Origin: a virus | Length of the DNA stretch: 64,000 bases | Virus record (IMG/VR): IMGVR_UViG_3300031962_000001 | Span: 1 to 64,000 of that record | Strand: one strand, 5' to 3' | Shown: piece after piece, positions 10,181 to 18,021 of the stretch | Numbering within the stretch: the stretch's first letter is position 1 | How the letters are laid out: every line of letters starts with the position of its first letter | Notes under the pieces: model-generated | The model's database searches: none | Seen by the model: only the letters and a program-made list of their open reading frames with translations | Told to the model about the DNA's origin: nothing | Position numbers and translations under genes: made by a program

Positions 10181-10709
10181 CATCTATGAAATTATCAAGC
10201 AAGACAATCCTAAGCTGGCAGAAACGTTGGACACTAATCACGACGTCTGCGATTTTCTCATGGCTCTGTACACTCAGCTTCACTATGCTGCCATGGAATC
10301 TTCCAAGAACCCGGTAGATATGCGCTGCAATATCACTGTGGAGAAAGAGCGTCTGCTAATCATCCGCACGAGCTACGTCGGAGACAGTGGTGGAAGAATA
10401 GACATCGGTACGAAACTGCCACGTCAGCGGAATCTTAATCTCGTGAAGTTTCTCCAAGTAAATCGTAACGTAAGGGATGTGGCTCTAAACGTAGTATACG
10501 CTTTGGAAGCGTGGCTCAATGAACTTCCGGTCAGAAAGAAGCAGGGATTCAAGAACATCAAGATAGAAAACGCCATGAAGTGGAGATCGGGAGAGATCAC
10601 GGCGGAGCTAGTGCTGAAGTTTGAATTCGACGAGATGGTAGCTGCGAAGATGAATTGGCAGATGGACGAACCGGAGCAGCCAACTGAAGAAGGGAGCATT
10701 ATCGTATGA
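10170..10709 (+). CDS. hypothetical protein
   Basis: ATG at 10170 (MPSNIYEII) overlapping the upstream gene end; coupled to the next gene by ATGA. Confidence 0.6.
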   Translation: MPSNIYEIIKQDNPKLAETLDTNHDVCDFLMALYTQLHYAAMESSKNPVDMRCNITVEKERLLIIRTSYVGDSGGRIDIGTKLPRQRNLNLVKFLQVNRNVRDVALNVVYALEAWLNELPVRKKQGFKNIKIENAMKWRSGEITAELVLKFEFDEMVAAKMNWQMDEPEQPTEEGSIIV

Positions 10710-11686
10710 GCATCATCGCATGTGCAGGATCAGACGAAGGACCGGGAGCGAATTTCACGCCGCCGACTCTTGGCGAGTTCATGAAGAACCAGGAAACTCA
10801 GCTCAGGCGTCTGCGTGAAGCGCGTGTCGGCGCTTCGGTCGTAAGAGAAGCTCGCCTGTTCCACGAGAAGCAGGCGCAGAAGCATGGCCTCCACACGAAG
10901 CGTGGCATAGCGCATCTTCGCGCCGCTCGCATGTTCTCGAGAGAGGCTGGCGCTTCATTGCAGGAGCGTCTCGAAAGCTTCAACAATCAAGTGGGCGAAA
11001 TCGATCCAAACACGCTGGCGAAGGCTACGAAGGACACCATCAACTTCCACAAGAAGATGGCGCAGAAGCACGGACTTGACAGCGACTTGGGACATGCTCA
11101 CACTTCTGCGATGGAACATCACATGGACACTCTCCAACAGTTGAAGAAAGGAGCCGGTCAACCTCAGCAGCCTCCACAGCAAGTTTCTGGCGAGGAAGCG
11201 TACGAAGGCGGTCCAGGGAGTGGACCTAAGAAGTCTGGATTTGATGACAAGAAAAGAACTTGGACTAGCCCAGAAGGTAAGACAGTAGGTATGGATAAGA
11301 AACCTGGAAAATATCCGAAGTACCATGAACGCGAAGCTCTCCCCGGCAAGTCTGGCAAACAGCTTCCTGTCCCGGTCCCAAACAAGTCCCAGATGCCTAG
11401 CCAAGATATCAAGCAGGACAAGCCACCGATAGATCTTGACGCTCAGCAAGGCGGCGGTCAGCGATTGCAGCAGACGTATGGAGCCCATGCTGGGATGAGA
11501 GCCAGCAAGAAGCCGACGTTCGAGTCGCGCTTTCGTCGGTTTGAGCGCGAAGCTCGCGGCCCATACGACGGCGAATGCGCTTTGCCTACCTCCGTCAAGA
11601 AGCAGGTCGGCAAGGATCTGGTAGACGAAGGACCAAGAGTAAAGCGCGAAGCACGGAGGTCTCTTCGGCGAAGGCGGACCGGGTAG
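10706..11686 (+). CDS. putative internal head protein (zero-frame product; probable +1 extension to 12269)
   Basis: Charged low-complexity protein with many R-E-A sites and an EGGPGSGPKK motif; lies upstream of the prohead protease. Confidence 0.6.
   Translation: MSIIACAGSDEGPGANFTPPTLGEFMKNQETQLRRLREARVGASVVREARLFHEKQAQKHGLHTKRGIAHLRAARMFSREAGASLQERLESFNNQVGEIDPNTLAKATKDTINFHKKMAQKHGLDSDLGHAHTSAMEHHMDTLQQLKKGAGQPQQPPQQVSGEEAYEGGPGSGPKKSGFDDKKRTWTSPEGKTVGMDKKPGKYPKYHEREALPGKSGKQLPVPVPNKSQMPSQDIKQDKPPIDLDAQQGGGQRLQQTYGAHAGMRASKKPTFESRFRRFEREARGPYDGECALPTSVKKQVGKDLVDEGPRVKREARRSLRRRRTG
11654..11669 (+). other. prfB-like +1 ribosomal frameshift cassette (CGGAGG-TCT-CTT-CGG-C)
   Basis: GGAGG 11655-11659, 3-nt spacer, CTT 11663-11665. 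The +1 frame reads on as GEGGPGSGPKK, with no start codon between TAA 11640 and GTG 11808. Confidence 0.6.
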
Positions 11687-12269
11687 CGGACCTAAAAAGG
11701 GAGAAGGTACTAGGAAGTCTATAGATATTGGATATGGCCCAATAGACGTTTCTAAATGGAGCCAGAAAGATATTGATACTTTCAAGAAGACCGGTAAAAG
11801 ACCAAAGGTGAAAGAAGCTCGCGAGGACGGTAACGTCTACGTCTCGCCACGCTATAAGAACATCCATCCAGAAGGCGACATAGACCCGCGCGACTTCGTC
11901 AAGGCTGGACAGAAAGGTGGCGGACACTCTGGCGGCGGAGAAGAATCTGGAATGCCACAGACGATGGAAGGCAAGCGAGGTTGGACGGAGCGTCAGCGTG
12001 CAATGCACAGCACGATGGGCAAGAAGATGGCAGCGAAGGAATCTGCGGAAGGTGGACCTGGAAGTGGCCCTCCAAAGAAAGGCATTGGTTCTAAAGAAGA
12101 CTACGAGAAGTGGGAAAAGCATGGGAAGAGAGAACGCACGCCTATCAAGGCTCCTTATGGAGAGTATGGTAGGAAAGCAAACGAATCCAACTGGCGTGGA
12201 GGCGGAGCGATATTCCAACCGAAAGCGCCAAGACTGGCAGAGAGCAAAGTAGCGATTAAAGAGTTCTGA
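11667..12269 (+). CDS. +1-frame C-terminal extension of 10706 gene (contains ORF 11808-12269)
   Basis: Open +1 frame with two further EGGPGSGP motifs and E-A/E-S sites, matching the upstream ORF. Confidence 0.6.
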   Translation, partial: GEGGPGSGPKKGEGTRKSIDIGYGPIDVSKWSQKDIDTFKKTGKRPKVKEAREDGNVYVSPRYKNIHPEGDIDPRDFVKAGQKGGGHSGGGEESGMPQTMEGKRGWTERQRAMHSTMGKKMAAKESAEGGPGSGPPKKGIGSKEDYEKWEKHGKRERTPIKAPYGEYGRKANESNWRGGGAIFQPKAPRLAESKVAIKEF

Positions 12270-12349
12270 AAGGTAACTACAGGTGCATAGAAAAATGAAC
12301 ATATCTTCCACATTCGATTGCTCCGTGCATAGTGCCAGCGAAGGGCGAA

Positions 12350-12379
12350 GGGAAGGCAGACTCTTCCTCCTGCCTTCCC
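12350..12379 (+). terminator. GC-rich stem-loop (terminator or stabiliser)
   Basis: GGGAAGGCAG / CTGCCTTCCC 10-bp stem in an intergenic region; no U-tract. Confidence 0.4.
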
Positions 12380-12399
12380 CAAGCCTATAGGAGAAAAAC

Positions 12400-13107
12400 A
12401 TGCCGCTAACAGATCTAGACTTGAGACCCTCACTCTCAGACGAAGAGGGTGCCACGTTCGAAGTAGGCTATTTCAACAAGAAGCAAGTGAAGCCAAAGAA
12501 ACTCCGTGAAGCGCTGAGACTCACCGTCGATGAAGACTCATCGTTCGATGACACGTTCCGCCTGCGTGAAGCTGGAGCAGGTCTAGCACCGTCTCAGAAC
12601 AATCAACAGTTCGCTCGTGGCGTTCCGATGGATGACAAGTCCACGTCGAAGAACTACAACTCGCAGATCATCGACGGTGAGCACAAGTCACTGCTCAGCT
12701 TGGGCAAGATCAACGAAGCGATGGAGGATGATGAACATAGTGAGCATATTCTTGAACATCGCATTCTGCTGGCGAATCCTAAGCTATCAGAGACACAACG
12801 CGCTAACCTTATGGCGCATCTCGAGAGCCACGTCAAGGCTCGCGGCAAGAAGATGAAAGAACTCAAGGCGGCAGCTGAAGGCAAAGGCAAGCAGAACGAC
12901 ATGGATGTGATGACCGGAGCTGCGAAATATAAAAAGGGACTCGGTATGCAATCGAAGGCTATGCCTGCGACACGATATGACGTAATACCACAAGACTCGC
13001 AGGTAGATCAGGAGCGCAAGCGGACCGCTGGCAATATGAGCATGGAATCCAGATTCGGGAGGTTCGACCGAGCGTTGAGGACATCTCGACTCCGGAGGTC
13101 GCTTTGA
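12400..13107 (+). CDS. putative internal head protein (zero-frame product; probable +1 extension to 13525)
   Basis: AGGAGA RBS; KLREA, RLREA and ESRFGRFDR motifs; ends R-R-S-L-stop. Confidence 0.65.
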   Translation: MPLTDLDLRPSLSDEEGATFEVGYFNKKQVKPKKLREALRLTVDEDSSFDDTFRLREAGAGLAPSQNNQQFARGVPMDDKSTSKNYNSQIIDGEHKSLLSLGKINEAMEDDEHSEHILEHRILLANPKLSETQRANLMAHLESHVKARGKKMKELKAAAEGKGKQNDMDVMTGAAKYKKGLGMQSKAMPATRYDVIPQDSQVDQERKRTAGNMSMESRFGRFDRALRTSRLRRSL

Positions 13108-13108
13108 A
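13093..13108 (+). other. prfB-type +1 frameshift cassette (CGGAGG-TCG-CTT-TGA-A)
   Basis: SD-like GGAGG 13094-13098, 3 nt, CTT 13102-13104, TGA 13105-13107. The +1 frame is open and in frame with ORF 13172-13525. Confidence 0.75.
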
Positions 13109-13525
13109 GTTGACGAGTTTTCGCCGAACTTTCCGCAGCTGGGAAGAAAGACACAGGGGCGTCGGTTCAATGTGTACCATAAGGAAGCGAATCAGACCAG
13201 GGATTTCAGGAAGAAGAATCCCGGCGTAGATGGCGCAATCAGCGACCCTCCGCCGGACATGAAACTGAAACCACCGATGACAGGGGAACTGGACAAGAGC
13301 ATGACCGGCAGAAATCAGCAATACGGGAATTTCTTGGCGAACTGGAACGATCCAAGAAACAAGGACGCTGCCAGAGAAGGCAACAGAGGCAACGTGATCC
13401 AAGATTCCAGAGGAAACAGTCTATCGCGTGGCGATTACGGAAAAGGCATGAACCCAAATTATACTGGTGATCTGGCAAAGAAATCACACGGGGATATCAT
13501 GAAATCAAAGGCACCGAGGTACTAA
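13106..13525 (+). CDS. +1-frame extension of 12400 gene (contains ORF 13172-13525)
   Basis: +1 frame reads EVDEFSPNFPQLGRKTQGRRFNVYHKEAN...; GTG 13172 has only a weak RBS. Confidence 0.65.
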   Translation, partial: EVDEFSPNFPQLGRKTQGRRFNVYHKEANQTRDFRKKNPGVDGAISDPPPDMKLKPPMTGELDKSMTGRNQQYGNFLANWNDPRNKDAAREGNRGNVIQDSRGNSLSRGDYGKGMNPNYTGDLAKKSHGDIMKSKAPRY

Positions 13526-14142
13526 TGAGAAGCGTGTATCTAATCCGGAATCGTGCTAACGGGAAGGTCTATGTAGGGAAGACCATCAGAGGGATAGAGA
13601 ATAGATTTCTAGAGCACATCTCTGGCCGTAACTCATCCTTGCTTCTTACCAGAGCCATGAATAAGTATGGTCTGGACAAATTTGAAATCTTCACGATTTA
13701 TAAAGATGCCGTAACAGATGGACATCTGAACATGCTGGAAGAGATGTACATCAAGATGTACCGAGCGAATGACAAACGCTATGGATACAATCTTACGGAG
13801 GGTGGAGATGGCCTTGTCAATCCTTCTGAAGCTGTTCGTAAGAAGATGAGAAAATCGCATGTCATGTCTGAAGAAGGCTCTAGAAGAATTGCTGAAGCTG
13901 CAATGGGAAATAAACGAGCTTCTAATATGTCTGAAGCAAAGCGTATGAAGTTGAGTAAGTTGATGAGGGAAAAGAGAAGGAAGTGGGGGGATAAGTATTG
14001 TTCACACGCCTTCTCTAATGAGGCTAGAAGAAAGATGCGGATTTCCAGAAGGCAGTATTTGAATAGCTTGACTGCTGAGGAACGCAGTCATATATTCAGC
14101 GGGGCTGCCAAAAGAGAAAGACTAGAGAAGAAGGCTGCGTAA
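13525..14142 (+). CDS. GIY-YIG homing endonuclease with NUMOD-like C-terminal repeats
   Basis: SVYLIRNRANGKVYVGKT, RFLEH, E..YIK, GYNLTEGGDG, SEAVRKKMRKSH. Confidence 0.85.
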   Translation: MRSVYLIRNRANGKVYVGKTIRGIENRFLEHISGRNSSLLLTRAMNKYGLDKFEIFTIYKDAVTDGHLNMLEEMYIKMYRANDKRYGYNLTEGGDGLVNPSEAVRKKMRKSHVMSEEGSRRIAEAAMGNKRASNMSEAKRMKLSKLMREKRRKWGDKYCSHAFSNEARRKMRISRRQYLNSLTAEERSHIFSGAAKRERLEKKAA

Positions 14143-14143
14143 A

Positions 14144-16408
14144 ATGCCAAATTCTAGTTCACAACATGGGCAACTTCAGAGAGCTGGTATACAACGTTTG
14201 ATCTCTGATAAAAAAGGAAAGAAGAGGAAGAAGCTAGTCGCTTCTAAAATCAGAGAATCCTTCGGTGGCAAAATCTTTACAGAAAAGGGTCAAGACGAAA
14301 CTGGAAAGTCTGCTAACGGAAAACAACAAAAGAGCCGTGTCTACTTGGTTACGATTATTGAGGAAGGCTTAGGCAACTCGAAAGATCGCAATTATTATAG
14401 CAGCGACGCTCTCAAGTCTGGCACTAACGTATTCAATGGCGCGAAAGCCTACGCTGACCATCCAGACGCCATAACCGAAAAGACACTGCCAGAGCGCAGC
14501 ATGAAGGATTTGGTAGGTTGGTATAGCGATTGTTTTGTCGACAAGAATCCCCAAACCGGCAAGGCTCGTCTGCGTGGTAAGCTCCACTTCTTCCCATCCG
14601 CTAAGTGGCTCACCGACATGATCGACACAATTCTAACTGACAAGTCTGCCAAAAATCTTTTCGGGATATCTATCAATGCCGTAGGCCGAACAAGGCCAGC
14701 GCAAATGAACGGCGAAGAAGTGAACTATGTAGAAGAATTTCAGCGAGTAGACAGTGCTGACGTAGTGACAGAGCCAGCAGCACGAGGAAAGTTCGACCAA
14801 ATGCTGGAGTCTAGGCGATCTGTCGCGGGCGGTCACTCACGGAAAGTAAGTAACAGTATGGGAACTCGAAGCAAACGAACGAGAGAATCGGCGGTCTTAA
14901 GCCCCGAGAAGGCAAAAGAAGTTGCTGACGCTCTCGTATCGGCATATAACTCGGACAATCCAGACGAAATGAAAGAAGCATCGTTTTCAGCGGCGAAACA
15001 ACTCTACGCTGTTTCTTCCATATCTGGCAAAGGTCCGGGACAGCCAAACGAAGAGCAGTACAGCAACATCAATCCAAGTGGAGGTAAAGAGTCAATGGCA
15101 AAGAGTAAGAAGATGAAAGCCTCCATCGGACGGCGATCTTTCCGCAAAGGCAAGAGGCTTGTGGCCGCCGATGGCAAGGGAGCTGATAACGAAAACGTAG
15201 ACGAACCAGATCCTGACGACATCGAGCCTCGTTTGGAGGAATCCGATGTTGAGGACGAGGAAGGCGACAAGGACGTCGGCGCTCTAGACGACTTCGGCGG
15301 CAGCAAGCATTATGCCAAGGAAGCTCGCGGCCGAGGCGGTCGTAGGATGGCAGCACAAGAGGGCTTCGAGGACGAAGGCTTTGAGGACGAGGGAGCAGAA
15401 GACGAGGGCTTCGAAGATGAGGACGAGGGATTCGAAGACGAGGATGGCGGAATGCCAGGAGCGATGCCTCCGGGAGCGGGAATGGGTGCTGCTCCGGGTG
15501 GTGGTGCTCCGGGTTCTTCGCGAACCGTAGCATCTGCAGAAGCAGATGATGACGATGATGATGGTGATGATGATCTGGACGATATGGACGAGGCTTTCGA
15601 GGATGAAGACGAAGGCTTCGAGGATGAGGGGATGGAAGATGAAGGTGGCCAGATGCGTCCAGGAACAGTAGCAGAAGCAGGTCGTCGCCGGATGGCGGTC
15701 AGGGCAAGTGGTCGTAGTCCTCGCCGTCGTTTCAGCCGTGAAGCCGGACGTGCAAGCGGTCAAGGGCAGACTGTCAGCAAGGCCTCGTTCGCGGGTGGTC
15801 TCGGACACTCGGGGAACACTGCTTTGCCAAAGGGAGGCGACCCCACGAAGGGATACGATCCTGGAGGCACAGACGAGGATTGGGGCAAGAAGGACGATTC
15901 CACGTCTGCCGTGGGCAAGTCCTACAAGATCAAGACCAGCAAGTTCCGTCGCAACAAGGTAGCGCGTCGTGTCGCTCAAGAAGCCAATCGCCGCATTGAG
16001 ATTCTCGAGCATAACGTCATGCGTCTACGTGAATCCCTCAAGGCAACTGGGCGCACGCTCAATCGGTACAAGGGCATCGTCCGATTCACCGAATCTCAGA
16101 AGAGCGCACATCGGCTTCTGAACAGAGCTGTCGAAGAAGGTTTCCTTCCGGAGGAAATGGTCAACGAATCTCGAGTCCTGCGGGAATCTCTGTATGGCTT
16201 GAGTGAACGTGATCAGATCCGGGAGATCAAAAAGACTGCACTACTTCTTGAATCTGCTCAAGAGGGAGTGGTGTCTCGTTTGTCTGAAAGCGTTGATGGA
16301 AGTGGAGCCAGAGGCGGCGCTGTATCCTATATAAGGACCGCCGGAGCAGAAGACTCTGAGCTCGCTGCGGGATTTGCCGATGACGGCATTCCCCTCAAAG
16401 ACGAATAA
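14144..16408 (+). CDS. prohead maturation protease fused to scaffolding protein
   Basis: IIEEGLGNSKDRNYYS, AYADHP, RSMKDLVG, GISINA, SADVVTEPAARG protease motifs; acidic linker and coiled-coil C-terminus; lies upstream of decoration and capsid genes; probable internal start (GGAGG...ATG 15095). Confidence 0.8.
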   Translation: MPNSSSQHGQLQRAGIQRLISDKKGKKRKKLVASKIRESFGGKIFTEKGQDETGKSANGKQQKSRVYLVTIIEEGLGNSKDRNYYSSDALKSGTNVFNGAKAYADHPDAITEKTLPERSMKDLVGWYSDCFVDKNPQTGKARLRGKLHFFPSAKWLTDMIDTILTDKSAKNLFGISINAVGRTRPAQMNGEEVNYVEEFQRVDSADVVTEPAARGKFDQMLESRRSVAGGHSRKVSNSMGTRSKRTRESAVLSPEKAKEVADALVSAYNSDNPDEMKEASFSAAKQLYAVSSISGKGPGQPNEEQYSNINPSGGKESMAKSKKMKASIGRRSFRKGKRLVAADGKGADNENVDEPDPDDIEPRLEESDVEDEEGDKDVGALDDFGGSKHYAKEARGRGGRRMAAQEGFEDEGFEDEGAEDEGFEDEDEGFEDEDGGMPGAMPPGAGMGAAPGGGAPGSSRTVASAEADDDDDDGDDDLDDMDEAFEDEDEGFEDEGMEDEGGQMRPGTVAEAGRRRMAVRASGRSPRRRFSREAGRASGQGQTVSKASFAGGLGHSGNTALPKGGDPTKGYDPGGTDEDWGKKDDSTSAVGKSYKIKTSKFRRNKVARRVAQEANRRIEILEHNVMRLRESLKATGRTLNRYKGIVRFTESQKSAHRLLNRAVEEGFLPEEMVNESRVLRESLYGLSERDQIREIKKTALLLESAQEGVVSRLSESVDGSGARGGAVSYIRTAGAEDSELAAGFADDGIPLKDE

Positions 16409-16934: not shown

Positions 16935-16950
16935 TGGAGGAATGAGGAAA

Positions 16951-18021
16951 ATGAGAACCCCAATGAATCGATGGGACGAGGTTGCAGCCAAGATCGATTG
17001 GTTCAGCCCCGAACTCAGCTTCCGCCGCCTCCGTGAGAGTGCTTATCGTCAATCACGGGTCTTGCGCGAAGCGAATGCTGAGTCTGCTTTTGGACAGTTG
17101 TTGAGAGCGGGAGTACAGACTTACGCGATCAACAGCTATAACACAGTTCCAGTGATCTATCCCGATCTCGTGACAGAAGTAGCGTCACGTCGTTTCCAAG
17201 AGTACTACGCTCCGTTGTATCGCCCCAATCTACCGAAGCGCGTTGATCGTGGCCAAGAGTTCCAAGACAATCCAGTAGTTGGACTCGACCGTCACTTGAC
17301 CAACCAGAAATTCGGCATGATCGAGGCGTTTGAGCGCGAACTCTTTGATGACGATCAGACCGGGCAGATCAAGAACCGTGCGAGCCAGATGGGTGAGAAC
17401 TTCAAGATCATGGAAGAAATCTACGTGATCGGGAAGATCATCGGCGCTGGCTTCACAGTTCAGGGTGTCACGGTGGACCCGGATGTCAGCTTCACCGACA
17501 CGGTTCCAGCTGGCTTCACTGGCACTGGCTCCTACAATACTTCTAAGGGCAATCGCCCCGGCACGTTCGTCCGTCTGTCTCAATTGAACCTGGAAACTGC
17601 CGACATCAACCTGATGAACATAACCGATCCTCTTGGAAACAAGTTCCTCGTGTCTCCGAATACATTGTTGGTCTCGCCAATCGACAAGTTCGTAGGCGCG
17701 AAGCTCTTGAATTCCACGTTGCAGCCATCTGTCCCGTCTGCATCTCCTGACGCGACTGGCTACACGATGACGGTCAATCCTCTGCAAGGACTGTACAAGC
17801 TACTGGTCTCAAGGTTCCTCACGTCCAAAGCGTGGATCCTTGGCGACCCGAAGAAATGTATGGTCTTCCAGCGGCGCGACCCTCTGGAGATCATCCAAGA
17901 GAACCCGGCTTCTGGCCAGTCGTTCAGCATGGAAGTCTATCGGTTCAAGTCTCGCTCACGTTTTGAAGTCGGCATGATTGAAAGTCGCTTCAACTACATG
18001 GGTGACGATGGCACAGTCTGA
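16951..18021 (+). CDS. major capsid protein (HK97 fold, Mu gpT-like)
   Basis: KFGMIEAFERELFDDDQTGQI, PNTLLVSP, NPLQG...VSRFLTSKAWIL, FQRRDPLE...YRFKSRSRF; followed by a terminator. Start 16942 or 16951. Confidence 0.85.
   Translation: MRTPMNRWDEVAAKIDWFSPELSFRRLRESAYRQSRVLREANAESAFGQLLRAGVQTYAINSYNTVPVIYPDLVTEVASRRFQEYYAPLYRPNLPKRVDRGQEFQDNPVVGLDRHLTNQKFGMIEAFERELFDDDQTGQIKNRASQMGENFKIMEEIYVIGKIIGAGFTVQGVTVDPDVSFTDTVPAGFTGTGSYNTSKGNRPGTFVRLSQLNLETADINLMNITDPLGNKFLVSPNTLLVSPIDKFVGAKLLNSTLQPSVPSASPDATGYTMTVNPLQGLYKLLVSRFLTSKAWILGDPKKCMVFQRRDPLEIIQENPASGQSFSMEVYRFKSRSRFEVGMIESRFNYMGDDGTV

What the first reader, a model, noticed from the sequence alone, without database searches (positions are those of the whole stretch)
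11640..11810. Second +1 cassette with the same 5' context but a CGG sense codon instead of UGA
Seen: CGG AGG TCT CTT CGG C at 11654-11669 matches the 13093 cassette (CGGAGGTCN-CTT-YG; both encode RRSL). The zero frame stops 6 codons later. The +1 frame starts at once with GEGGPGSGPKK, a motif also present in the zero-frame protein, and has no start codon between TAA 11640 and GTG 11808, so it can only be reached by a shift or an indel. Both upstream proteins also share ESRFxRF(D/E)R near their ends. Inference: a ~520-aa fusion made by a 'hungry-codon' (rare Arg CGG) version of the RF2 site. Two neighbouring genes would then use sibling cassettes sensing tRNA-Arg and RF2 respectively. Caveat: deleting one G gives LREGGPGSG, so a single-base error or mutation also explains it.
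Basis: partly seen in the sequence, partly recalled or inferred. Interest (0 to 1): 0.75.

Follow-up and report, generated by a model that had tools for sequence, protein, structure and literature searches.

The report
Conserved +1 frameshift site using CGG
A soil phage head-region gene can be read to its full 520 residues only if the ribosome slips one base forward at a signal built like the bacterial release-factor-2 slip site, but with a rare arginine codon where the stop codon would be. Diverged relatives keep this signal letter for letter, so it is deliberate recoding and not a sequencing error.

Summary
CGG AGG TCT CTT CGG C lies at 11654-11669. The zero frame stops 6 codons after CTT. 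The +1 frame is open for 200 codons and has no start codon before 11808.

The single-base-error explanation is rejected.
- The 17-mer CGGAGGTCYCTTCGGCG sits at the same ORF junction in 5 further diverged relatives (36-58% protein identity to the window's protein; one of them only 43% in the best segment), each with an open, homologous +1 frame.
- One relative carries CTT TGA at this position. Seven homologous proteins end RR(H/G)L-stop.
- Six proteins and three loci are continuous and lack the cassette.
- The codons CGG, AGG and CTT never vary, while every other conserved Arg/Leu/Ser column has scrambled codons.

CGG is the phage's rarest Arg codon (4.0 per 1000), against 27 per 1000 for GGC, the +1-frame codon.

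The neighbouring gene has the UGA version of the signal. Of its 56 homologues, 52 end RRxL-stop and none is a fused form.

The same CGG cassette joins portal and MuF ORFs in an unrelated phage. It also lies in frame in a large ATPase-GNAT phage family, where it alternates with an A10 run.

Best reading: a programmed +1 ribosomal frameshift driven by an internal Shine-Dalgarno, a CUU slip codon and a slow A-site codon. No experiment supports this yet. This scan has already noted prfB-like cassettes in other phage genes on other DNA. I found no published description.

The parts
10706..11686 (+). Gene A, zero-frame ORF (326 aa). This is the unshifted product, ending ...EARRSLRRRRTG*.
   Evidence: It has 20 homologues in metagenomes and no Pfam or PHROG family.
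11655..11660 (+). Internal Shine-Dalgarno-like GGAGGT inside codons CGG AGG TCT. It ends 2 nt before the CTT codon (3 nt counted from GGAGG), the same spacing as in prfB.
   Evidence: CGG AGG is invariant in all 7 gene-A and 6 gene-B split loci, while other conserved Arg codons are scrambled. Phage genes use canonical SDs: 29 of 43 starts.
11663..11665 (+). CTT (Leu), the proposed slip codon. The peptidyl-tRNA-Leu would re-pair from CUU to UUC.
   Evidence: CTT is invariant at every split junction. The re-pairing is inferred from the RF2 mechanism (PMC5009743).
11666..11671 (+). CGG CGA, the zero-frame A-site codon and the next codon. They are the two rarest Arg codons of the phage. The +1-frame A-site codon is GGC (11667-11669).
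   Evidence: CGG 4.0 and CGA 4.7 per 1000 codons. GGC 27.1 per 1000. CTTCGGCG is invariant in all CGG-type loci.
11640..11642 (+). TAA that closes the +1 frame upstream. The shift must occur between 11643 and 11686.
11684..11686 (+). TAG, the zero-frame stop of gene A.
11667..12269 (+). +1-frame continuation of gene A: 200 codons plus stop, GEGGPGSGPKK...VAIKEF*. With residues 1-320 it gives a 520-aa product.
   Evidence: It is 54% identical (E 3e-26) to residues 336-449 of the continuous homologue P0006, and the match starts before the first possible start codon. The C-terminus ..IKEF/Y is shared by the family.
12400..13107 (+). Gene B, zero-frame ORF (235 aa), ending RRSL*. The sibling cassette CGG AGG TCG CTT TGA is at 13093-13107.
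   Evidence: Of 56 homologues, 52 end RRxL-stop.
13106..13525 (+). +1-frame continuation of gene B: 139 codons plus stop. The fusion is 374 aa.
   Evidence: It is homologous in the +1 frame in L002, L003, L009, L012 and L017.

Best explanation
Gene A (10706-12269) is one gene decoded in two frames by a programmed +1 ribosomal frameshift.

Proposed mechanism, by analogy with prfB:
1. The ribosome carries peptidyl-tRNA-Leu on CUU (11663-11665) in the P site.
2. The internal Shine-Dalgarno GGAGGU just upstream pairs with the 3' end of 16S rRNA.
3. The A site holds CGG, the phage's rarest Arg codon, followed by the second rarest, CGA. Decoding is therefore slow.
4. During the pause the tRNA-Leu re-pairs one base forward on UUC. 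The common codon GGC is then read.
5. Translation continues for 200 codons and gives a 520-aa protein, ...RRSL-GEGGPGSGPKK...IKEF.

Ribosomes that decode CGG normally make the 326-aa form. One gene would thus give two head-region proteins in a ratio set by the competition between Arg-tRNA(CCG) arrival and slippage.

Gene B, next door, uses the same cassette with UGA. There the competitor is release factor 2.

Shown here: the ORF geometry, the homology of both frames to single continuous proteins, the nucleotide-level conservation of the cassette, and the rarity of CGG in the phage.

Inferred: that the ribosome slips, where exactly it slips, how efficiently, and any regulatory meaning.
For: 1. 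Geometry. The zero frame is closed 6 codons after CTT. The +1 frame is open for 200 codons and closed 8 codons upstream.

2. One protein. Continuous homologues (P0005, P0006, P0008, P0010, P0015, P0019, and loci L002, L009, L012) contain both parts. The window's +1 ORF matches P0006 residues 336-449 at E 3e-26, starting 29 codons before the first start codon. P0005 reads PRTKEAAEGGPGSGP where the window would read PRVKREARRSL-GEGGPGSGP after the slip.

3. Conservation. CGGAGGTCYCTTCGGCG sits at the junction in L003, L005, L011, L013 and L017, with +1 ORFs of 144-352 codons that end ..IKEF where the contig allows. L008 has CTT TGA there. Homologous proteins end RRHL* or RRGL* (7), or RRSLRR.., RRYLRR.., RRFLRR...

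4. Nucleotide-level selection. Among invariant Arg/Leu/Ser columns outside the cassette, 0 of 4 (gene A) and 0 of 13 (gene B) keep one codon. CGG, AGG and CTT are identical in all loci. No column is invariant in the 60 nt on either side.

5. Natural control. Continuous relatives lack the cassette; L002 reads AGA AGG ACT GGT.

6. Codon speed proxy. CGG makes up 7% of Arg codons and is the 3rd rarest sense codon. GGC is about 7 times more frequent.

7. Portability. The same 17-mer joins a Phage_portal ORF to a +1 Phage_Mu_F ORF in an unrelated phage, L036. Its closest homologues are continuous portal-MuF fusions, and the homology resumes 4 residues after the site. In phrog_11143, NGG-RGG-N3-CTT-(CGG, AGG, UGG, UGU...) lies in frame at a domain junction and alternates with an A10 run.

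8. Both products look selected. In L003, L005, L013 and L017 the zero-frame tail WE(S/T)DDSERDRSxSGLTA* is 88-100% identical, against 31-75% for the +1 frame, and 12 of 19 variable columns fall at zero-frame third positions.
Against: - There is no direct evidence of slipping: no proteomics, no Ribo-seq, no reporter, and no RNA run was listed.
- The host is unknown, so 'rare' rests on phage codon usage only. In L011 CGG is 12% of Arg codons.
- In phrog_11143 the A-site codon is sometimes CAA, which is not rare in AT-rich genomes. One gene-A homologue reads RRSLQ... A hungry codon is therefore not strictly required.
- In the window the unshifted tail is only RRRRTG, not the conserved acidic tail of the relatives. 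Whether the short form matters here is open.
- The ORF geometry alone cannot place the shift at CUU and not at CGG_AGG.
- The conserved CGN after the A-site codon has no explanation.
Confidence: 0.85

Rival explanations
1. The extra base is a sequencing or assembly error or a recent indel. The gene is really continuous (LREGGPGSG...) or is a fresh pseudogene.
For: Removing one G restores a single frame (sequence). Some relatives are continuous. Read-level support at site A comes only from the probable source run.
Against: Five other diverged loci (36-58% protein identity to the window's protein) carry the same break with the same 17-mer and intact +1 ORFs. Continuous relatives have a different sequence there, not the cassette minus one base. 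Logan's assembly agrees. The 200-codon +1 ORF is intact and conserved.
Confidence: 0.02
2. These are two separate genes. The +1 ORF is translated on its own by internal initiation or re-initiation, and GGAGG serves as its ribosome-binding site.
For: GGAGG is a perfect SD core. Overlapping neighbouring genes are common in phages.
Against: - No ATG/GTG/TTG lies in the +1 frame between 11643 and 11808, and homology to fused proteins starts 29 codons before 11808.
- In relatives the first +1-frame start lies anywhere from -36 to +47 codons from the site, without a conserved SD.
- The TTG inside CTTTGA is in the +2 frame.
- Continuous fused homologues exist.
- The invariance of CTT and CGG would be unexplained.
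Confidence: 0.05
3. The cassette is conserved for another reason, such as a peptide motif RRSL(RRP) needed in the protein or a DNA or RNA target site. The frame change is then achieved by a different mechanism, for example a quadruplet-reading tRNA for CUUC/CUUU.
For: The zero-frame peptide L-R-R-P recurs in three unrelated protein families. The CGN after the A-site codon is unexplained.
Against: - In phrog_11143 the amino acids vary (RR, RG, WR, WG) while GGAGG or GGGGG is kept. This is a nucleotide signature, not a peptide one.
- No tRNA gene is present in the 92.9-kb record.
- The spacing and elements match prfB exactly.
- RRP lies after the slip point, so it is absent from the shifted product.
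Confidence: 0.05
4. RNA polymerase slippage makes an mRNA that lacks one base.
For: In phrog_11143 an A10 run, a classical slippage motif, replaces the cassette in 28 of 64 distinct junctions.
Against: The window site has no homopolymer longer than 2-3 bases (CTT CGG; CTTT in gene B). Known transcriptional slippage needs long A or T runs (PMC3711429).
Confidence: 0.01

Closest known systems
Bacterial prfB (release factor 2) autoregulatory +1 frameshift: SD-like AGGGGG, 3-nt spacer, CUU_UGA_C
   Same: An internal SD-like purine block, the same spacing to a CUU slip codon, a slow A site, and +1 re-pairing on UUN. Gene B of this window has the full CUU_UGA form.
   Different: - At 11666 a sense codon (CGG) replaces UGA, so unshifted ribosomes continue instead of terminating at once.
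- The gene is a phage head-region protein, not a release factor, so there is no autoregulatory loop.
- The base after UGA in gene B is A, G or T, not C.
- According to PMC10885494, all CUU-stop +1 sites in RECODE belong to prfB.
Yeast Ty1 / ABP140 +1 site CUU_AGG_C
   Same: A CUU slip codon, a rare Arg codon in the A site and GGC as the incoming +1-frame codon. CUU_CGG_C differs from CUU_AGG_C by one base. CTT_AGG_C itself occurs in the phrog_11143 cassettes.
   Different: Ty1 works in a eukaryote with no SD stimulator and depends on the yeast tRNA-Leu(UAG) and the scarce tRNA-Arg(CCU). Here an rRNA-pairing stimulator is present and the tRNA set is unknown.
Listeria phage PSA cps and tsh +1 frameshifts (CCC_UGA; ACA_CCC_UCC)
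   Same: A phage structural gene gives a C-terminally extended second product by a +1 slip. One of the PSA sites is at a sense codon (PMC5009743).
   Different: The PSA slip codon is CCC. Its stimulator is a 3' pseudoknot or a stop codon, with no internal SD and no rare Arg codon.
E. coli frameshifting at tandem rare Arg codons AGG_AGG / AGA_AGA, and RF2-site reporters with sense codons
   Same: Slow Arg decoding promotes a +1 shift. AGG_AGG also resembles an SD (PMC5009743; Spanjaard and van Duin 1988, cited in PMC10885494).
   Different: Those are artefacts of over-expression or engineered reporters. Here the arrangement is natural and conserved by selection.
Two-product phage and bacterial genes (lambda G/GT, T7 10A/10B, dnaX tau/gamma)
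   Same: A fixed ratio of a short and a long protein that share an N-terminus. As with dnaX, lineages swap recoding devices (PRF, slippery A run, fused ORF).
   Different: Those use -1 shifts on slippery heptamers or A runs. The products and roles of gene A are unknown.

Membership tests
prfB-type +1 programmed frameshift cassette | Shine-Dalgarno-like element about 3 nt 5' of the shift codon | tested here: met
   GGAGG(T) at 11655-11660, followed by 3 nt (TCT) and then CTT. This is invariant in 13 split loci.
prfB-type +1 programmed frameshift cassette | CUU shift codon followed by a base that allows re-pairing on UUN | tested here: met
   CTT C at 11663-11666, so the re-paired codon is UUC. 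CTT is invariant.
prfB-type +1 programmed frameshift cassette | In-frame UGA stop codon in the A site (UGA_C context) | tested here: not met
   Site A has CGG. Gene B at 13105 has UGA, but followed by A. Relative L008 has UGA at the gene-A site.
prfB-type +1 programmed frameshift cassette | The +1 frame encodes the remainder of a protein that is continuous in some homologues | tested here: met
prfB-type +1 programmed frameshift cassette | Autoregulation: the product (RF2) competes at its own site | tested here: not met
   The gene products have no release-factor family match.
prfB-type +1 programmed frameshift cassette | Trans-frame protein demonstrated | not testable with these tools
   No proteomic or Ribo-seq data are available, and no RNA run was listed.
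Hungry-codon +1 site (Ty1 type, CUU_AGG_C) | A-site codon read by a scarce tRNA | tested here: inconclusive
   CGG is the rarest Arg codon of the phage (7% of Arg; 4.0 per 1000). The host tRNA pool is unknown. Phages with a continuous gene A use CGG more (L002 25%, L009 14%).
Hungry-codon +1 site (Ty1 type, CUU_AGG_C) | Abundant codon in the +1 frame (GGC in Ty1) | tested here: met
   The +1 A-site codon is GGC in all 7 CGG-type loci. GGC occurs at 27.1 per 1000 codons.
Hungry-codon +1 site (Ty1 type, CUU_AGG_C) | The heptamer suffices without an upstream stimulator | tested here: not met
   A conserved SD-like element always accompanies the site.
Two-product phage morphogenesis genes made by frameshifting | Both the unshifted and the shifted product are under selection | tested here: inconclusive
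   The zero-frame tail is under purifying selection in L003, L005, L013 and L017. In the window the tail is only 6 residues.

The most novel reading that the evidence does not exclude
Uncultured phages carry a portable and tunable +1 recoding module: SD, 3 nt, CUU, then either a stop codon or a slow sense codon (CGG, AGG, UGG, UGU), usually followed by CGN. It has been installed independently in unrelated genes:
- head-region genes A and B of this phage;
- a portal-MuF gene;
- the ABC-ATPase-GNAT family phrog_11143.

Over evolution it is interchanged with fused ORFs, A10 slippery runs and -1 split ORFs. It would set the ratio of two protein forms according to the host's RF2 or Arg-tRNA supply. 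It would also be the first natural sense-codon prfB-like site in bacteria or their viruses.
Probability: 0.6. Interest if true: 0.85.

Novelty: new variant of a known kind. Interest (0 to 1): 0.72.

Why it matters
Outside prfB, natural +1 frameshift signals in bacteria and their viruses are very few. One survey states that every CUU-stop +1 site in the RECODE database is a prfB gene (PMC10885494).

Here the same machinery is used by phage structural genes, in two forms side by side. One form competes with release factor 2 and the other with a rare Arg-tRNA. The same position carries a natural series of variants: UGA, CGG and fused.

This matters in three ways.
- It offers a ready-made comparative system for asking how A-site decoding speed and SD pairing set frameshift efficiency.
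- Gene callers systematically split or truncate these genes. All 56 gene-B homologues found are annotated as the short form.
- Phages may couple virion protein ratios to the translational state of the host.

Tried and rejected
DNA for the protein-only homologues (RRHL*, RRSLQ.., RRFLRR..) could therefore not be read.
- No Pfam or PHROG family matched gene A or B or their +1 parts. ESM Atlas gave no usable hit.
- AlphaFold2 of gene B with 32 sequences gave pLDDT 59: mostly disordered, plus long helices. No fold search was run on it.
- No relatives were found in 50,697 isolate phage records by blastn or tblastn, nor in GTDB genomes. The host is therefore unidentified.
- Single-protein scans of IMG/VR found nothing. 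Alignment-based scans did.
- Sequencing runs: no RNA holder was listed. Run X2, from another study, covers site B without any difference but does not cover site A.
- RNA structure: folds of 76 nt around 7 sites have z-scores from -0.5 to +1.4. The alifold helix rests on one compensatory change. It is not claimed as a stimulator.
- Gene A against gene B by profile-profile comparison: probability 2.3%. Paralogy is not supported.
- A portal search for close relatives of L036 in IMG/VR found only L036 itself.
- Literature searches for CUU_UGA or CUU_CGG sites in phages found no description.
- A -2 shift was considered. CUC lies 2 nt back only in the window and some relatives, not in loci with spacer TCC or GGT. 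Rejected.
Full report
**Setting.** The window is the first 64 kb of a 92.9-kb IMG/VR virus record. All genes lie on the + strand. The finding lies upstream of a GIY-YIG homing endonuclease (13525-14142), a prohead protease/scaffold fusion (14144-16408) and a Mu gpT-like major capsid protein (16942-18021). Gene A (10706-) and gene B (12400-) match no Pfam or PHROG family.

**Observation.**
- CGG AGG TCT CTT CGG CGA occupies 11654-11671 in the frame of ORF 10706-11686, which ends RRSL RRRRTG*.
- The +1 frame is closed by TAA at 11640-11642. From 11667 it reads GEGGPGSGPKK... for 200 codons, to 12269.
- Its first ATG/GTG/TTG is GTG 11808.
- The pattern CGGAGGNNNCTTYGR occurs twice in 64 kb, at the ends of genes A and B, against 0.03 expected.

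**One gene or two.** Homologues of the zero-frame protein fall into two groups.
- Six are continuous proteins of 348-531 aa that end ..IKEF or ..IKEY, like the window's +1 ORF.
- The others stop where the window's zero frame stops.

The +1 ORF aligns with residues 336-449 of the continuous P0006 (54% identity, E 3e-26). The match begins at its residue 19, well before the first possible start at residue 48. P0005 reads PRTKEAAEGGPGSGP where a slip in the window would give PRVKREARRSL-GEGGPGSGP. The two ORFs are therefore halves of one protein.

- In L003, L005, L011, L013 and L017 the gene is split at the same place, and the junction reads CGGAGGTC(C/T)CTTCGGCG.
- In L008 it reads CGGAGGTCCCTTTGA.
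- After each site the +1 frame is open for up to 352 codons. It ends ..IKEF wherever the contig is long enough.
- In a 120-nt ungapped comparison, the only invariant columns apart from the first are those of the cassette.
- In codon-aware alignments, none of the other invariant Arg, Leu or Ser columns keeps one codon in all loci (0 of 4 in gene A, 0 of 13 in gene B). CGG, AGG and CTT are identical everywhere.
- Relatives with a continuous gene (L002, L009, L012) have no cassette at that position. L002 reads AGA AGG ACT GGT.

A one-base error or a recent indel cannot produce this pattern. Logan's independent assembly of the probable source run agrees with the window over 10700-13600. A run from another study confirms site B but does not cover site A.

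**The sibling site.** Gene B ends CGG AGG TCG CTT TGA. The +1 frame continues for 139 codons to 13525. L002, L003, L009, L012 and L017 have CGGAGG-NNN-CTT-TGA at the same junction, with homologous +1 ORFs. Of 56 homologous proteins, 52 end RRxL-stop and none is a fused B0-B1 form. The UGA site therefore appears to be obligatory in that family.

**Mechanism (inferred).** The elements and their spacing are those of prfB: an SD-like block, 3 nt, CUU, then a slow A site (PMC5009743, PMC3711429). The phage's own genes use canonical SDs (29 of 43 starts), so its host ribosome has the matching anti-SD.

At site A the A-site codon is CGG. It is the rarest Arg codon of the phage (7% of Arg, 4.0 per 1000, third rarest sense codon), and it is followed by CGA, the next rarest. 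The +1-frame codon GGC is about seven times more common. CUU_CGG_C differs by one base from the yeast Ty1 site CUU_AGG_C, which also brings GGC into the A site (PMC5009743).

For a tRNA-Leu with anticodon GAG, re-pairing on UUC gives U·G, U-A and C-G. This is at least as good as the UUU used in prfB (base-pairing rules; inference).

Three alternatives have no support.
- No tRNA gene is present in the 92.9-kb record.
- There is no homopolymer for transcriptional slippage.
- There is no significant local RNA structure.

**Two products.** In L003, L005, L013 and L017 the zero frame continues after CGG for 21-23 codons, as RR(K/R)P(I/V)WE(S/T)DDSERDRSxSGLTA*.
- This tail is 88-100% identical between loci, against 31-75% for the overlapping +1 frame.
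- Of 19 variable columns, 12 fall at zero-frame third positions.

In those phages the unshifted protein is therefore selected too, and the site sets a ratio and is not a mere obstacle. In the window the tail is only RRRRTG.

**Portability.** A scan of IMG/VR for the 17-mer returned 73 loci. Three have the split geometry: L058 and L077, which are the contigs of L003 and L017, and L036.

In L036 the cassette ends a Phage_portal ORF (E 3e-45), and the +1 frame encodes a Phage_Mu_F domain (E 2e-18).
- Both halves match one PHROG profile of a 717-aa portal protein.
- The closest homologues are continuous portal-MuF fusions of about 700-740 aa.
- Homology in the +1 frame resumes 4 residues after the site.

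About 25 further hits belong to one family, phrog_11143. This is an ABC-ATPase plus GNAT protein of about 355 aa, in which the cassette lies in frame between the two domains. An unbiased sample of that family gave:
- 32 junctions of the form NGG-RGG-N3-CTT followed by CGG (11), AGG (8), TGG (6), TGT (4), CAA (2) or CGA (1);
- 28 junctions with an exact A10 run;
- 4 others.

The amino acids vary (RR, RG, WR, WG) while GGAGG or GGGGG is kept. AGGGGGTATCTT, the E. coli prfB form, occurs too.

In Firmicutes phages such as Streptococcus 315.4 and Lactococcus P335 the same gene is annotated as two ORFs, with the GNAT part in the -1 frame. This looks like a dnaX-style two-product gene with interchangeable recoding devices. 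It shows that the sense-codon cassette is not peculiar to gene A.

**Open points.**
- The host and its tRNA pool are unknown.
- The A-site codon is not always rare (CAA; Q in P0017).
- The CGN that follows the A-site codon in nearly all sense-codon sites is unexplained (note 6).
- Efficiency is unknown.
- The function of genes A and B is unknown. AlphaFold2 of gene B predicts disorder plus long helices.

**Comparison with earlier work.**
- Literature searches found no description of CUU-stop or CUU-CGG sites in phage genes.
- PMC10885494 states that all CUU-stop +1 sites in RECODE are prfB genes.
- Earlier notes of this scan report prfB-like cassettes in other uncultured phages, on SSB, DNA polymerase, RF1-like and deaminase genes, the last with a sense codon. 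I did not test them. They suggest a wider phenomenon and do not count as evidence here.

**Verdict.** The site is a new variant of a known kind of recoding signal. Confidence that it is a selected +1 recoding site is about 0.85. Confidence in the specific 'tRNA-Arg sensing' reading is about 0.5.

Noticed in passing
L036:6295-6311 (IMGVR_UViG_3300007352_000022): The identical CGG-type cassette (CGGAGGTCACTTCGGCG) joins a Phage_portal ORF (zero frame, ends KRRSLRRRQRP*) to a Phage_Mu_F ORF in the +1 frame, in an unrelated GC-rich phage. The nearest homologues are continuous portal-MuF fusions.
   Followed up: partly
L095-L174 (IMG/VR), L175 (Streptococcus phage 315.4, NC_004587), L176 (Lactococcus phage P335, DQ838728): The ABC-ATPase+GNAT phage family phrog_11143 (at least 583 IMG/VR loci) carries one of three arrangements at its domain junction:
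- an in-frame SD-N3-CTT-(CGG/AGG/TGG/TGT/CAA) cassette;
- an exact A10 run;
- in Firmicutes phages, two ORFs with the GNAT part in the -1 frame.
The +1 frame always closes 25-26 codons later, inside the invariant HYL motif. This is probably a dnaX-like two-product gene. No paper was found.
   Followed up: partly
L003:6156-6221, L005:1479-1544, L013:835-906, L017:1688-1756: In four relatives the unshifted gene-A product ends in a conserved acidic tail, WE(S/T)DDSERDRSxSGLTA*, under zero-frame purifying selection. The window (RRRRTG*) and L011 (RRS*) lack it.
   Followed up: yes
window 11669-11671; the same position in L003, L005, L011, L013, L017, L036, L095-L174: The codon after the A-site codon is CGN in nearly all sense-codon cassettes (8 of 8 in the gene-A family plus L036; 27 of 32 in phrog_11143), and is often followed by CC. 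The UGA cassettes show no such 3' conservation. Unexplained.
   Followed up: no
L003:6148-6200 and the homologous stretches of L005, L013, L017: A possible 10-bp helix pairs the shift site GGUCYCUUCG with CGARMGRGACC about 35 nt downstream. L005 shows one fully compensatory change. The helix is absent in the window and L011, and the folds are no more stable than shuffles.
   Followed up: partly
window 11207-11230, 11667-11696, 12046-12072; proteins P0003-P0019: (E)GGPGSGP motifs flank variable inserts in gene-A homologues, whose lengths range from 277 to 531 aa. The motif also occurs in the N-terminal insert of the L003 protease/scaffold protein. The gene looks like a modular carrier with linker or cleavage motifs.
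   Followed up: no
window 13525-14142; L002:5837-6574: A GIY-YIG homing endonuclease gene starts at the last base of the stop codon of gene B's +1 ORF in the window. In L002 it starts 2 nt after the end of that ORF. It is absent at this position in L003 and L017.
   Followed up: no
window, L002, L003, L009, L011, L017: Phages with a CGG-type gene A use CGG for 6-12% of Arg codons. The two with a continuous gene A use it for 14% (L009) and 25% (L002). The sample is small and the observation only suggestive.
   Followed up: partly
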